This document shows positions 10,793 to 28,023 of a DNA stretch of 64,000 nucleotides, piece after piece. Each line of letters opens with the position of its first letter. The stretch's first letter is position 1. This stretch comes from a virus, in the IMG/VR virus record IMGVR_UViG_3300012314_000001, one strand, 5' to 3'. A program made the translations under genes and the position numbers. Under the pieces are notes generated by a model that was not told the origin of the DNA, made no database searches, and saw only the letters and a list, made by a program, of their open reading frames with translations.

Positions 10793-11122
10793 ATGGTTTC
10801 GGAACTGGATACACAGTTAGAAAAACACTACGACCATCTCGTGTGGTTTGCGGGAGTGATCCGCGGCTGCGCAGGCAAGGACACTCTTGACGACGGTACG
10901 CCGTTGAAAGAGTTAACAGATTTCACCTGGTATATTGACGGTGAAGACAAGCTCATTGTTTCGCAAAACTTGTTTGCAGGACAGACTGGTACAGTTGAAT
11001 TCGTTGACGATACCGCAGTTGTTGTGTGCAGCAGCTGGGGCAAGAGTCGACAAAAGGAACTGCCTGCAGATGTAGCTGAGCAGCTTTCTCACTACTTCCG
11101 CGGCCAAGTCACAAACACGTAG
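10793..11122 (+). CDS. hypothetical protein, tandem paralog A
   Basis: Shares ..LDDGT.LK.L...W..D.. block with the next ORF. RBS ggaaaca before ATG. Confidence 0.45.
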   Translation: MVSELDTQLEKHYDHLVWFAGVIRGCAGKDTLDDGTPLKELTDFTWYIDGEDKLIVSQNLFAGQTGTVEFVDDTAVVVCSSWGKSRQKELPADVAEQLSHYFRGQVTNT

Positions 11123-11135
11123 TAAAGGAAAAATC

Positions 11136-11471
11136 ATGGCTGATAGCGACACACAAGAACTTATCGACCAAGAGCTCAAAAAATTCGCAGAACTTCTCAA
11201 CACGTTTGCGGATATGATTAATGACGGTGATGAGGACCCCGTCCTTGATGATGGCACCGAGCTAAAAAACCTGGCGCAAGCATGGTGGGTTGATGACGAG
11301 ACTGGGAAGCGGGTTGTGCATTTCCGCGATGATCTTAGCCCGACTACGCTCATCCTTTCTCACTATGGCATTAACGGTGCGATGCTAACGTCCACTCTGG
11401 GCAGAGATAATGGCGGTATTCTTTTGTCTGATAAGATTTCTGAGGCGATGGCTCGCTACTACTTTGAGTAG
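11136..11471 (+). CDS. hypothetical protein, tandem paralog B
   Basis: VLDDGTELKNLAQAWWVDDETGKRV is similar to TLDDGTPLKELTDFTWYIDGEDKLI of the preceding ORF. RBS aaggaaa. Confidence 0.45.
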   Translation: MADSDTQELIDQELKKFAELLNTFADMINDGDEDPVLDDGTELKNLAQAWWVDDETGKRVVHFRDDLSPTTLILSHYGINGAMLTSTLGRDNGGILLSDKISEAMARYYFE

Positions 11472-11540
11472 CATGGTAAAGGTAGAGCTCCAAGGACTCC
11501 TATAGTAGGAAACCTTGGGGCTCTATTTTTGTGTGCGCAG

Positions 11541-11993
11541 CTACTTTTCCTGCAAAAACTTATCCGTATCCTCAACAGCTTCAAGAATCACATGCGCCAC
11601 CTCAACACCCGTAGAGTCAAGAGCGATGAACTTGCGCACAGCCTGCGACACCTTAAACGACAAGGTGTCCTCAATATCAACGTCTTGGTCAGGCTCTAGA
11701 TCGCGCTTCAGGTACTTGCCGAGTTCGTTTTCGAAAAAGACAAACACATCAGAAACGGTCCTGCTTTCCATATTGAAAGCAAAACGAATGATAACATTAG
11801 GATCTTCTTCAAGAAGGTACTGCAAGTATGCGGTTGTATGTTCGTAGCCTACCGAAGTGAGACTGAGTTTAGTATCAGTGTTGTGGTAGACGGTGTTAAC
11901 GAAGCGGGTGTGGAACTCGAAGGCGTAGATGAGGTCTTTGGCAGGGAATTCTCGGAGTGTACCATTTTCGTTGGCGATTCGGTCAAGTTGCAT
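11541..11993 (-). CDS. hypothetical protein (150 aa)
   Basis: ORF; the antisense ORF 11515-11847 is rejected. Confidence 0.45.
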   Translation of the reverse strand: MQLDRIANENGTLREFPAKDLIYAFEFHTRFVNTVYHNTDTKLSLTSVGYEHTTAYLQYLLEEDPNVIIRFAFNMESRTVSDVFVFFENELGKYLKRDLEPDQDVDIEDTLSFKVSQAVRKFIALDSTGVEVAHVILEAVEDTDKFLQEK

Positions 11994-12004
11994 GGGTTTC
12001 TCCT

Positions 12005-12382
12005 TTAGGCGTTGCTATAGGGCGCAAAAGCGTCCTGGATAGCTTTGCCAACCTCAAACCCGTCAGCCTGGATACTGATGTTACGTCGAATAGTGCGAGT
12101 AATGTTCAAAGATGGAGTGCCTTCCCAGTCCTCGTGTTCTTTTTTGATTTGGGCTTGGACATCTGGGTTAAGGAAGACTTGCACATCTGTCACCATATCT
12201 TTTTCCAGGTCAAAGGTGATTTCGAAGTGCCCGTCAAAGGCGGGGTCGGAAAAACGCATTTCCAGATCTTCGTCGTAAGCGTTAGCGCTAAGCAGCTTAG
12301 GAGCGGGCTTTTTGCCGTAGGATTTGATGAACTGTTCGTAGAATTTGAATGCGGCTTCGAAACTGTAGGCGGGGTGGTGCAT
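12005..12382 (-). CDS. hypothetical protein (about 125 aa)
   Basis: ORF. Start moved to the internal ATG (12382) because it has an RBS aaagga, whereas the upstream ATG (12439) sits inside a strong hairpin. Confidence 0.4.
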   Translation of the reverse strand: MHHPAYSFEAAFKFYEQFIKSYGKKPAPKLLSANAYDEDLEMRFSDPAFDGHFEITFDLEKDMVTDVQVFLNPDVQAQIKKEHEDWEGTPSLNITRTIRRNISIQADGFEVGKAIQDAFAPYSNA

Positions 12383-26322: not shown

Positions 26323-26396
26323 CGACATAGAGAAGGGACGGCACTTGGGGGTTGTTGCCTTTGGGTGCCGTCTCTTTTTGTTATGTGACGAGGGGG

Positions 26397-26654
26397 TTAT
26401 TCTACCTTGTGCCAAGTAACGTTGTTGGTAAAGAACTCGTCTAGTTGTTTGTCGTTGCTGATGTGTCCGTTGGCGAAGCGTTTGAGTTGCTTTGTGGGGC
26501 ACATGACCTGAGATAGGAAGAAGTGTTCTTTGTCTTTGGGGTCGTGGAGTTCGAGGATATAGTTGCCGTCGATAATGCCTATGCGTAGGTAGCGTGCGTC
26601 GTTGAATTCGTATTCGTGTGCGGGTTCTTCGATGAAGGTAACTGGGTACGTCAT
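26397..26654 (-). CDS. hypothetical protein (85 aa)
   Basis: ORF. Confidence 0.4.
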   Translation of the reverse strand: MTYPVTFIEEPAHEYEFNDARYLRIGIIDGNYILELHDPKDKEHFFLSQVMCPTKQLKRFANGHISNDKQLDEFFTNNVTWHKVE

Positions 26655-26657
26655 AAG

Positions 26658-27359
26658 CTACTGTGCGCCGACCTCTGCCATGGTGGTCTGCACAACACTG
26701 GATTCTTGGTCGAACGTGTGGCCTGGTAGATAATCATTCGCGGTTGCAGACCAAATAGGATGATCAAAGGGAAAAGCTACAGTCTCGGCGTAGTTTCCTT
26801 GCTCAATGTGCTCAATGGTGGAGATAGTGCGCATTGAGGTGATGTTGGGGTTGTGTGGGGAAACGAGATTGTGCCAGTCAATGGTGGGCGTGTGCTTGCG
26901 GCCTTCTGGTAGTAGAGGTTGGAGAAAATGTGCGGGTGTCGTGTCGTCTAATGATCGGCACGTGTGCGCGAGCATAGAGGTCTCGTCAAGAAGCACTGGA
27001 TCGTCGGTGAGGAGAAAAATGTTGCCTGTTGCAGGCATGTCCTCGGTACCGAAGTTGTAGTGAATGAAGTTCACAGTGGTCTCGTTGTTTGTGACCGTGA
27101 AATAGTCCAACAGGCCAGGCGTCTCCTCTGTAGGTTCGAGGCTATAGTACGGGTAATGCGCTAGTGCTTTATGCAGATCGTCTGCATACCACTGCCGCGT
27201 GTTTTCAACACAAGTCGATAGAAGTTGAAGCGCGGCGGTGGAGGTGTGCCGGAAGTCGACTTCGTGTGGGTCGCGCCGGGTGCTGAAAAGCGTGGATACA
27301 GCACGAGTGTCTTCTGGGGCAACGTAGGCGCGGTGTCGGACGAAAGTGTAATGGGTCAT
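26658..27359 (-). CDS. hypothetical protein (233 aa), tandem paralog
   Basis: N-terminus MTHYTFVRHRAYVAPEDT parallels the next ORF (MTQYQLTRHRTYITPENT). Confidence 0.45.
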   Translation of the reverse strand: MTHYTFVRHRAYVAPEDTRAVSTLFSTRRDPHEVDFRHTSTAALQLLSTCVENTRQWYADDLHKALAHYPYYSLEPTEETPGLLDYFTVTNNETTVNFIHYNFGTEDMPATGNIFLLTDDPVLLDETSMLAHTCRSLDDTTPAHFLQPLLPEGRKHTPTIDWHNLVSPHNPNITSMRTISTIEHIEQGNYAETVAFPFDHPIWSATANDYLPGHTFDQESSVVQTTMAEVGAQ

Positions 27360-27366
27360 GGGTTCC

Positions 27367-28023
27367 TTACTTGGTTTCTAGCATGATGCAAGAGCAGTGA
27401 ATATTGTCGGTGCTTTGGGGGTCGGTGTCGCTCAGCAGGGCCCAAAGTGGGTGTCCGATGGGCAGTTCGAGGTAAATGTCGTCGGCGGTGACGGTGTCCG
27501 GGGATTGGATAATCGTGACCGCGGGAGAGTGGACGATTTGATCCCAGGCAATGGTATCGCCGTCATAGTCTTCGATGAGTGGTGCAAGGAATTCTTGGTC
27601 GGTAAGTTCCGTGTCGCCGTGGTAGTGGTATGCGGCGAGGCAGTGTATAGAGGTGTAGATTCCGGAGTTGGTGAGGTTGAGGTGTCCACCGCTGGGGGCC
27701 ACATGGTGTGCGCTGGAGGTGAAGGTTACGAATTCGCCTTGGGTTTTGGTGGTGAGGTTAGCAATGGTGATGTAGTCGAGTGTGGAGCCGTGTGCGGAGT
27801 GTGCGAGGGATGTGAGGGTGTTGGGGTTGCGGGTGAGTTCGGTGTGGATGAGTGGGTTGAGCCAGGGGAGTGTGGGTTCGATTTGGTCGTTGTAGAAGGT
27901 GAGTAGGGTGTCGTTGGTGTTTGTGGGTTCGGGTGTGATGCCTGTGCCGAGGAGGGTTGCGGCGTGTGGGGTGTTTTCTGGTGTGATGTAGGTGCGGTGG
28001 CGGGTGAGTTGGTATTGCGTCAT
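27367..28023 (-). CDS. hypothetical protein (218 aa), tandem paralog
   Basis: See previous. Confidence 0.45.
   Translation of the reverse strand: MTQYQLTRHRTYITPENTPHAATLLGTGITPEPTNTNDTLLTFYNDQIEPTLPWLNPLIHTELTRNPNTLTSLAHSAHGSTLDYITIANLTTKTQGEFVTFTSSAHHVAPSGGHLNLTNSGIYTSIHCLAAYHYHGDTELTDQEFLAPLIEDYDGDTIAWDQIVHSPAVTIIQSPDTVTADDIYLELPIGHPLWALLSDTDPQSTDNIHCSCIMLETK

What the first reader, a model, noticed from the sequence alone, without database searches (positions are those of the whole stretch)
10793..28023. Unusually frequent local tandem duplication of small ORFs
Besides the surface-protein triplet and the 60-aa triplet, I see several other tandem paralog pairs. These are 10793/11136 (LDDGT.LK block), 22892/23061 (VVYEI.(I/V)PD..P.DEWE..W), 23216/23436 (M.IFE.EF.F.V.G...VEA.SA.EA) and 26658/27367 (MT.Y...RHR.Y..PE.T). 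The S1 protease pair at 43949/45038 is another. One copy (23061-23213) has no canonical start codon after the upstream stop, which suggests a decaying duplicate or programmed recoding. This pattern of birth and death of tiny acidic genes is typical of phage anti-defence or moron regions.
Basis: seen in the sequence. Interest (0 to 1): 0.5.

Follow-up and report, generated by a model that had tools for sequence, protein, structure and literature searches.

The report
Old tandem gene pairs, mobile element
The small neighbouring look-alike genes are real but ancient duplicates, kept intact by selection in the accessory region of an uncultured large actinobacterial phage- or plasmid-like element. 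The copy without a start codon is a one-base variant seen only in this sequence, so the finding is real but fairly ordinary.

Summary
All four reported pairs are true homologues. Pairwise BLASTP gives E=3e-15, 4e-15 and 1e-12 for three pairs. The fourth (10793/11136) is missed by BLASTP but supported by Smith-Waterman (z=9.1) and profile-profile comparison (E=3.6e-7).

The duplications are old, not ongoing. Paralogues share 25-60% identity and synonymous sites are saturated. Each copy has its own orthologue (77-100% identity) in related metagenome contigs, with dN/dS 0.05-0.3.

Copy number does vary between lineages, but through loss or replacement of whole genes. p3a is absent in one lineage, p4b is present in one sub-lineage only, and the 60-aa triplet is absent in two.

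The copy without a start codon has ATA at 23052-23054. The same position is ATG in 23 loci from other contigs, and its protein is otherwise identical to those of close relatives. This is a recent private start-codon mutation, not programmed recoding.

The families are restricted to this clade and match no Pfam, PHROG or PDB entry. An anti-defence role is therefore unsupported, though not excluded.

The density of arrays is about twice that of the large mycobacteriophage WXIN, whose accessory arm is as dense. The host element mixes actinophage-like and Mycobacteriales megaplasmid-like genes, and no virion genes were seen.

The parts
10793..11122 (+). p1a, 109 aa, acidic; upstream member of pair 1
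   Evidence: ORF. Homology to p1b by Smith-Waterman z=9.1 and hhalign E=3.6e-7. Orthologues P0022 and P0023 at about 90% identity. Present next to p1b in L034 and L035.
11136..11471 (+). p1b, 111 aa, acidic; begins 13 nt after the p1a stop
   Evidence: Orthologues P0017-P0027 at 69-100% identity.
14434..15086 (-). Triplet t1 (14434-14637), t2 (14664-14867) and t3 (14910-15086); 58-67 aa, pI about 4
   Evidence: All-against-all BLASTP E=1e-13 to 3e-23; alignment A1. Three copies in L018, L023, L024-L028 and L034; none in L010 or L029. The C-terminal tail of t3 is variable and truncated.
22546..22866 (+). 106-aa gene, first gene of the five-gene operon that holds pairs 2 and 3
   Evidence: Called by the source gene caller. 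Conserved in all lineages. A terminator-like hairpin lies upstream at 22438-22470.
22892..23044 (+). p2a, 50 aa, net charge -11
   Evidence: Identical protein in at least 23 contigs. Orthologue dN/dS 0.10-0.31.
23052..23213 (+). p2b, 53 codons, starting with ATA (23052-23054) where relatives have ATG; 7 nt after the p2a stop. This is the 'start-less' copy.
   Evidence: Not called by the source gene caller here, but called as a 53-aa gene in relatives. Orthologue dN/dS 0.045-0.14.
23216..23404 (+). p3a, 62 aa, GTG start 2 nt after the p2b stop
   Evidence: The start codon is GTG in 15 loci, ATG in 9 and GTA in 1. Absent from lineage L013-L017.
23436..23624 (+). p3b, 62 aa
   Evidence: Truncated to 57 aa by TGG>TGA in L010 and L011. 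Terminator-like hairpins lie downstream at 23771-23794 and 24012-24036.
26658..27359 (-). p4a, 233 aa
   Evidence: Present in most lineages that cover this position; replaced by an IS607-like insertion in L024, L028 and L032. dN/dS 0.21-0.24.
27367..28023 (-). p4b, 218 aa, upstream of p4a with a 7-nt gap. Found only in a sub-lineage and always beside p4a.
   Evidence: Other lineages carry a 286-aa Band_7 gene, an N6_N4 methyltransferase or an IS607-like insertion at this position.
4291..9606 (+). Array of three surface-protein paralogues (4291-5985, 6043-7749, 7828-9606)
   Evidence: 47-57% identity, E down to 4e-151. Only two copies in L034. Repeat-length differences between near-identical assemblies.

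Best explanation
The pairs are genuine but ancient tandem gene duplicates. They lie in the accessory arm of an uncultured, large (at least 106 kb) actinobacterial mobile element that is known only from metagenomes.

Shown:
- Each paralogue has its own conserved orthologue in several diverged lineages and evolves under purifying selection, so both copies are functional genes and not transient amplification products.
- Differences in copy number between lineages come from loss or replacement of whole genes or cassettes at recombination-prone junctions. In lineage L013 the single p3 gene joins the p3a 5' junction to a p3b body. At another position p4b alternates with a Band_7 gene.
- The copy without a start codon is p2b carrying a private, very recent ATG>ATA mutation.

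Inferred:
- The genes are packed in short operons with gaps of 2-13 nt (p2a-p2b 7, p2b-p3a 2, p4b-p4a 7, p1a-p1b 13). Translation is therefore probably coupled.
- Coupling would tolerate weak start codons (ATA here, GTA in L026).
- Coupling also fits paralogue partners that work together, possibly as heteromers derived from an ancestral homomer.
- Their target is unknown. Interference with host processes, including defence, is plausible for small acidic clade-restricted proteins of a mobile element, but nothing here demonstrates it.
For: Homology of the pairs.

Age of the duplications: paralogue pS is 0.63-0.84 and dS is above 1.4 or undefined, while orthologues are 77-100% identical.

Purifying selection on every copy: dN/dS 0.045-0.34, against 0.006-0.18 for neighbouring large genes.

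Retention: p2a and p2b are both present in every lineage sampled, including the most divergent, L013.

Copy-number polymorphism. The chimeric junction in L013 is shown.

Start codon: ATA only in the window and in contig k141_4759; ATG in 23 loci from other contigs. Residues 2-53 are identical in nine close lineages. The window and k141_4759 differ elsewhere (23 mismatches plus indels in the first 11 kb). The variant is therefore seen in two non-identical records.

Operon structure and spacing. Gaps of -8 to +10 nt predict termination-reinitiation and are enriched for subunits of heteromeric complexes (PMC10666635, read).

Clade restriction: an exhaustive HMM search of 1.84 billion representative proteins returns only the two p3 subfamilies plus one spurious repeat protein.
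Against: There are no expression data, so neither coupling nor heteromer formation is tested.

The AlphaFold models are poor (pLDDT 57.5 and 59.8) and give no fold match.

For p3, the single-copy state in L013 could be ancestral rather than a deletion. Synonymous divergence is saturated either way.

Gaps of 26-42 nt within the triplet and 31 nt between p3a and p3b are too long for tight coupling.

ATA may simply abolish p2b expression in this lineage.
Confidence: 0.72

Rival explanations
1. The arrays are an anti-defence or host-takeover island of a large phage. Small acidic proteins were duplicated and diversified in an arms race with host immunity.
For: - DNA polymerase I is closest to Corynebacterium, Gordonia and Nocardia phages (40-42% identity).
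- The 452-aa and 707-aa neighbours fall in PHROG families (E=1.7e-54 and 7e-33) and have phage homologues.
- There are four tRNA genes.
- Several conflict-related genes lie nearby: Dam and EcoRI-type methyltransferases, a SocA/Panacea domain, Fic, and an 873-aa enzyme with an NPPY motif.
- All the small proteins have pI of about 4.
- The accessory arm of phage WXIN also carries tandem paralogues.
Against: - No similarity to any known anti-defence protein. The Pfam DpnD/PcfM hit scores 16.8 bits against a cut-off of 25. PHROG hits all have E>0.01. PDB profile searches return nothing credible.
- Acidity is shared by almost all proteins of the region, including large ones.
- dN/dS is low, with no sign of diversifying selection between orthologues.
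- No virion genes occur in the roughly 76 kb that could be read.
- The FtsK-like protein is far closer to Mycobacteriales megaplasmids (E about 1e-67) than to phages (E=1e-12).
Confidence: 0.25
2. p2b in this window is a pseudogene. The ATG>ATA change silences it, and it is the first step in the decay of a redundant duplicate.
For: There is no ATG, GTG or TTG between the upstream stop and the conserved body. The source gene caller does not call the gene here, but does in every relative. From general knowledge, ATA is a very weak initiator in bacteria.
Against: The ORF is intact and residues 2-53 are identical to nine close lineages. Any silencing is therefore too recent to tell. p2b is retained with low dN/dS in all lineages, which argues against redundancy. 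It begins 7 nt after the p2a stop, with GGAGG upstream. Reinitiation at a near-cognate codon is therefore possible. A parallel GTG>GTA change occurs at the p3a start in L026.
Confidence: 0.4
3. p2b is expressed by programmed recoding, that is a +1 frameshift from p2a, giving a p2a-p2b fusion protein.
For: p2b lies in the +1 frame relative to p2a. A GAGGAGG motif directly precedes the GTA TGA end of p2a, which superficially resembles the prfB frameshift site.
Against: In 23 loci from other contigs p2b has its own ATG. The window in which a shift could occur is only three codons long. By inference, GTA offers no re-pairing in the +1 frame.
Confidence: 0.02
4. The tandem paralogues did not arise by local duplication. 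Recombination between related elements stacked divergent alleles of the same locus side by side.
For: p4b occurs only in one sub-lineage and sits where other lineages have an unrelated Band_7 gene. The slot downstream of the 707-aa gene has at least five alternative gene contents.
Against: p4b was never found alone or in place of p4a. The p3 family exists nowhere outside this clade. p2a and p2b are fixed together in all lineages.
Confidence: 0.15

Closest known systems
Tandem paralogues in the non-structural arms of large actinophages, for example Mycobacterium phage WXIN (Omegavirus, 115 kb)
   Same: Short, closely packed genes of unknown function with neighbouring paralogues at 32-44% identity. 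Four arrays lie within an 18-kb accessory stretch. WXIN shares a homologue of the 707-aa protein (30% identity, E=1e-60). It also carries an FtsK-like translocase, tRNAs and LysB.
   Different: No sequence similarity between the small genes themselves. WXIN has a recognisable virion module, and none was seen here. Gene orientation switches far more often in this window.
Adaptive gene amplification of counter-defence genes, such as the tifA segmental amplification in phage T4 (eLife 2022, PMC9391042, seen in the list but not read) and poxvirus 'accordions' (my own knowledge)
   Different: Those amplifications give near-identical copies whose number changes within a few generations. Here the copies share 25-60% identity, synonymous sites are saturated, and copy number is stable among close relatives.
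Anti-defence islands in the leading region of conjugative plasmids (Nature 2024, PMC11541004, title and abstract seen)
   Same: Clusters of small genes together with orphan methyltransferases on a transferable element. The FtsK-like protein here is closest to 200-340 kb Mycobacteriales plasmids.
   Different: No origin of transfer, relaxase or known anti-defence gene was identified. Genes lie on both strands, not in a single orientation. Membership was not tested.
Translationally coupled gene pairs that encode subunits of heteromers (Front Microbiol 2023, PMC10666635, read)
   Same: Gaps of 2-7 nt between p2a/p2b, p2b/p3a and p4b/p4a fall in the -8 to +10 nt range that predicts termination-reinitiation.
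   Different: Neither coupling nor complex formation has been measured here. The partners are paralogues, not unrelated subunits.

Membership tests
Tandem paralogue array (local gene duplication) | Statistically significant, collinear protein homology between neighbours | tested here: met
   for the four pairs; for the two triplets.
Tandem paralogue array (local gene duplication) | Same strand and directly adjacent | tested here: met
   Gaps of 7-42 nt. The S1 protease pair fails this feature because it is divergently oriented.
Ongoing amplification or rapid birth-and-death ('accordion') | Near-identical copies, with copy number differing among very close relatives | tested here: not met
   Paralogue identity is 25-60% and dS is saturated. 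The ten contigs with an identical p2a (nine other lineages plus the window's own contig) all carry the same 2+2 arrangement of pairs 2 and 3.
Known anti-defence protein families (Acr, Ocr, ArdA/ArdB and similar) | Sequence or structural homology to a characterised member | tested here: not met
   Pfam, PHROGs, PDB profile searches and Foldseek on the p4a model. No dedicated anti-defence HMM library was available.
Known anti-defence protein families (Acr, Ocr, ArdA/ArdB and similar) | Demonstrated inhibition of a defence system | not testable with these tools
   This needs an experiment.
DpnD/PcfM-like (Pfam PF14207) | Score at or above the Pfam gathering threshold | tested here: not met
   16.8 bits against a cut-off of 25, over 17 residues only, and for p3a only. 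The exhaustive profile search finds no bridging sequences.
Programmed +1 frameshifting (prfB-like) | The downstream ORF lacks its own start codon across relatives, and there is a conserved shift site | tested here: not met
   ATG is present in 23 loci from other contigs.
Pseudogene | Disabling lesions and relaxed constraint | tested here: inconclusive
   The only lesion is the ATG>ATA start change. The ORF is intact and identical to relatives, and dN/dS is 0.045-0.14.
Tailed phage (Caudoviricetes) | Terminase, portal, major capsid and tail genes | tested here: inconclusive
   None appear among the Pfam or PHROG hits for the roughly 76 kb that could be read. Related contigs reach 106 and 266 kb, and those parts could not be fetched.
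Conjugative megaplasmid of Mycobacteriales | FtsK/SpoIIIE-type coupling ATPase together with relaxase and secretion genes | tested here: inconclusive
   The FtsK-like protein is 35% identical to proteins of 200-340 kb plasmids (E=4e-69 for the best hit). Only faint EspG and weak SLT hits were found, and no relaxase was seen.

The most novel reading that the evidence does not exclude
The conserved pairs p2a/p2b, p3a/p3b, p1a/p1b and p4b/p4a may be obligate paralogue heteromers. They would be made by termination-reinitiation in a previously undescribed clade of large human-associated actinobacterial mobile elements, and would act on host defence or physiology. Because translation is coupled, their start codons could drift to near-cognate codons (ATA, GTA) without loss of expression.
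Probability: 0.15. Interest if true: 0.55.

Novelty: new member of a known kind. Interest (0 to 1): 0.3.

Why it matters
The result separates two processes that look alike in a single sequence. One is fast adaptive amplification of counter-defence genes. The other is old duplicates that have been retained. Here, comparison across related contigs shows the second. The work also yields five small protein families restricted to one clade, each kept as paired copies under purifying selection. They sit on an uncultured large element that recurs in many metagenomes, which makes them reasonable candidates for functional screening. Two natural start-codon variants (ATA and GTA) in tightly spaced genes offer a small test case for coupled translation. 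None of this changes current understanding.

Tried and rejected
- Megablast of 10-29 kb against PLSDB plasmids and INPHARED phages: no match.
- Searches for relatives of the 707-aa protein and of a TnpB in GTDB genomes: none found, so the host could not be named.
- IMG/VR scans with the 707-aa protein and with the p3 profile: none found.
- Test for a link between the 60-aa triplet, pair 3 and pair 2: hhalign E=0.12 and 0.44, so they are treated as separate families.
- DpnD/PcfM lead: below threshold and not bridged by an exhaustive search.
- PADLOC on ten neighbouring proteins: only weak hits, namely SoFic for the Fic protein, coiled-coil noise, and mad2 at E=6e-4 for the 873-aa protein.
- AlphaFold2 of p3 (pLDDT 57.5) and p4a (pLDDT 59.8, with the five models disagreeing): too poor to use. 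Foldseek against PDB gave a best E of 0.22 and TM below 0.3.
- PDB sequence-profile searches for five families: nothing credible. Designer-PPR hits at E about 1e-3 with no valid stretch were judged spurious.
- P0030, a 1483-aa hit to the p3 profile, is a highly repetitive unrelated protein.
- Attempt to extend beyond the window's end: assemblies stop about 3.7 kb past the EcoRI-type methylase gene.
- My early assumption that the window is exactly contig k141_4759 was wrong for the first 11 kb.
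Full report
**Observation**

Pairwise BLASTP supports three pairs:
- 22892/23061: 40% identity over 47 aa, E=3e-15.
- 23216/23436: 37% identity over 62 aa, E=4e-15.
- 26658/27367 on the minus strand: 26% identity over 207 aa, E=1e-12.

The pair 10793/11136 is invisible to BLASTP. A collinear Smith-Waterman alignment covering nearly the full length scores 74, against a mean of 27.6 (sd 5.1) for 2000 shuffles, and no shuffle reaches it. I then collected orthologues of each member and compared the two profiles. 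hhalign gave probability 92.9% and E=3.6e-7 over 98 columns. All four pairs are therefore homologous, and composition alone does not explain them.

An all-against-all search of every stop-to-stop ORF also recovers the 60-aa triplet, the surface-protein triplet and the S1 protease pair. It adds one non-adjacent pair, 123-542 versus 19334-19864. The proteases share the TAGHCG and GDSG motifs but are divergently transcribed.

**The copy without a start codon**

No ATG, GTG or TTG lies between the upstream in-frame stop and the conserved body of the second copy of pair 2. In related contigs the same gene is called as a 53-residue protein that begins MTRIGIVEQVVYEI. The homologous codon is ATG in 23 loci from other contigs. 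It is ATA (23052-23054) only in the window and in contig k141_4759.

Residues 2-53 are identical to those of nine close lineages. The window and k141_4759 are identical over 14199-56243 but differ by 23 mismatches and indels in the first 11 kb. The ATA allele is therefore seen in two non-identical records. I cannot exclude that both derive from the same reads.

Programmed recoding is not needed and is contradicted by the ATG in relatives. The +1 frame is open for only three codons before the p2a stop.

A parallel case exists one gene downstream. The p3a start is GTG in 15 loci, ATG in 9 and GTA in 1.

**Age and selection**

Related contigs fall into several lineages: L010/L011, L013-L017, L018-L022, L023, L024-L033, L034/L035 and L040-L044. 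Orthologues of each copy are 77-100% identical, whereas paralogues are 25-60% identical.

Nei-Gojobori estimates give the following:

| Comparison | dN/dS |
|---|---|
| p2a orthologues | 0.10-0.31 |
| p2b orthologues | 0.045-0.14 |
| p3a orthologues | 0.05-0.12 (0.57 for one nearly identical pair, dS 0.02) |
| p3b orthologues | 0.06-0.25 |
| p4a orthologues | 0.21-0.24 |
| Triplet orthologues | 0.05-0.34 |
| Neighbouring large genes | 0.006-0.18 |

Between paralogues, synonymous sites are saturated (pS 0.63-0.84). The duplications are therefore old, and every copy is maintained by selection. No near-identical recent duplicate exists in the window.

**Copy-number variation**

- Pair 2 has two copies in every lineage, including the most divergent.
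- Pair 3 has two copies in most lineages and one in L013-L017. That single gene carries the p2b-p3a upstream junction and second codon, followed by a p3b-like body. This fits a deletion of one 220-bp unit by recombination within the shared ATTTTTGA segment. An ancestral single copy, followed by rapid divergence of p3a, cannot be excluded, because dS is saturated for both comparisons.
- p4b occurs only in the window's sub-lineage and in L040-L044, and always beside p4a. Elsewhere the slot holds a 286-aa Band_7 gene, or an added N6_N4 methyltransferase, or an IS607-like resolvase plus TnpB.
- The triplet is missing from L010 and L029.
- The surface array has two copies in L034.
- Point lesions occur sporadically. 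p3b is truncated by TGG>TGA in L010, and the t3 tail differs between lineages.

There is turnover, but it is slow and proceeds by loss or replacement.

**Is the frequency unusual?**

The same BLASTP pipeline finds four merged arrays in the 64-kb window. Pairs 2 and 3 merge into one array, pair 1 is missed, and the protease pair falls just under the threshold. It finds four arrays in the 115 kb of Mycobacterium phage WXIN, all within 50.7-67.9 kb of its accessory arm. A 26-kb stretch of plasmid pTY66_01 has at least one clear pair. The window is perhaps twice as dense as WXIN overall, but similar to WXIN's accessory arm. This baseline is small.

**What the element is**

There is no nucleotide match in PLSDB or INPHARED, and nothing in GTDB genomes or IMG/VR.

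Phage-like features:
- DNA polymerase I is 40-42% identical to those of Corynebacterium, Gordonia and Nocardia phages.
- RusA, an RNase T-like exonuclease, YqaJ, WhiB and Dam are present.
- PHROG families match the 452-aa and 707-aa proteins.
- There are four tRNA genes.

Plasmid-like features:
- The FtsK-like protein is 35% identical (best E=4e-69) to proteins of 200-340 kb Mycobacteriales plasmids, against E=1e-12 for the best phage.
- The 707-aa protein is matched about equally well in plasmid pTY66_01 and in phage WXIN.
- Strand switches are frequent, and there are toxin-antitoxin-type domains and IS elements.

No virion genes were seen in the roughly 76 kb that I could read. Relatives sit on contigs of 106 and 266 kb. 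The cutinase, LytR, DUF2020 and EspG-like genes suggest a host in the Mycobacteriales, such as Corynebacterium. That is inference.

**Function**

- None of the small proteins reaches any Pfam threshold or a credible PHROG match.
- An exhaustive profile search with the p3 family over 1.84 billion representatives returns only its own two subfamilies and a spurious repeat protein.
- The p1 and p4 families are likewise confined to this clade.
- Structure prediction failed to give usable models, and no fold or PDB sequence match was found.
- All the small proteins are strongly acidic (pI about 4). So are most proteins of the region, including the 707-aa and 873-aa ones.

**Mechanism proposed**

The 106-aa gene, p2a, p2b, p3a and p3b lie between terminator-like hairpins. 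The gaps are 7 nt (p2a-p2b), 2 nt (p2b-p3a) and 31 nt (p3a-p3b). p4b-p4a are 7 nt apart and p1a-p1b are 13 nt apart. Gaps of -8 to +10 nt predict termination-reinitiation and are enriched for subunits of heteromeric complexes (PMC10666635).

I infer that the tightly spaced pairs are co-translated. This would relax the need for a strong start codon, and long-term retention of both copies may reflect paralogue partnership. This step is inference only.

**Verdict**

It overstates the case on rapid birth and death, and on decay or recoding. The anti-defence idea remains untested. Overall this is a new example of a known pattern.

Noticed in passing
window 15173-17794 (-): The 873-aa protein has an NPPYG motif, a DPACG-type motif and an N-terminal D...EAK motif. 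It gives weak DUF7149 (E=5e-4) and PADLOC mad2 (E=6e-4) hits. It may be a fused endonuclease-methyltransferase of the MmeI-like type IIG/IIL kind and not an orphan methylase. It is conserved at 80-97% identity in relatives.
   Followed up: partly
window 26323-28152 and the same slot in L010, L018, L024, L026, L028-L032, L040: The slot downstream of the 707-aa gene is a hot spot with at least five alternative gene contents: 85 aa+p4a+p4b; p4a+p4b; (85 aa+)p4a+Band_7; N6_N4 methyltransferase+85 aa+p4a+Band_7; or an IS607-like resolvase+TnpB alone.
   Followed up: partly
window 23625-24198; L018 10558-12832, also L019-L022 and L032: The 570-bp gap after p3b is a second insertion site. Some lineages carry a YfbU-family gene there, with or without a 431-aa TnpB.
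   Followed up: no
L026 about 10325; L010 10001-10174: Two other point lesions occur in otherwise conserved small genes of relatives. The p3a start is GTA in L026, where the gene is not called by the source. p3b is truncated by TGG>TGA to 57 aa in L010 and L011.
   Followed up: yes
window 4291-9606, compared with L006: The window is not identical to contig k141_4759 in its first 11 kb. There are 23 mismatches, plus 15-bp and 195-bp length differences inside the Pro/Thr/Glu-rich repeats of the surface-protein genes. The first two surface genes are in the same frame, separated by a single stop codon at 5983-5985.
   Followed up: partly
window 3506-3774 and 43813-43886: Four tRNA genes: a Leu(tag)-Gly(tcc)-Thr(tgt) cluster and a separate Asn(gtt).
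   Followed up: no
window 24199-26322 (+): The C-terminal half of the 707-aa protein resembles the MXAN_6230/SCO0854 RING-domain family (NCBIfam E=1e-36, far below the cut-off). Full-length homologues occur both in phage WXIN and in plasmid pTY66_01.
   Followed up: partly
window 123-542 (+) and 19331-19834 (-): A non-adjacent paralogue pair, 33% identity over 78 aa, E=5e-7, about 19 kb apart on opposite strands.
   Followed up: no
about 1.9 kb beyond the window's end (window-equivalent 65.86 kb); ends of L036 and of k141_4759: Two independent assemblies, NODE_54 and k141_4759, end at the same place about 3.7 kb past the EcoRI-type methylase gene. This suggests a repeat or a physical genome end.
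   Followed up: no
window 14910-15086 (-): The third member of the 60-aa triplet lacks the conserved C-terminal ...DNGxFxxL of the other two. Its tail differs between lineages: 58 aa ending CVDD, or 66 aa ending CVEHCCTPLIRP.
   Followed up: yes
window 17889-19247 (+): The 452-aa protein belongs to phrog_12834 (E=1.7e-54). Its closest phage homologues are in SPbeta-like Staphylococcus phages (34% identity), not in actinophages.
   Followed up: no
window 39012-40139 (-); contig region upstream of the window (L006 19048-20277): The element carries two IS605-family TnpB genes. Relatives carry further TnpB and IS607-like copies at different sites, which indicates active IS traffic.
   Followed up: no
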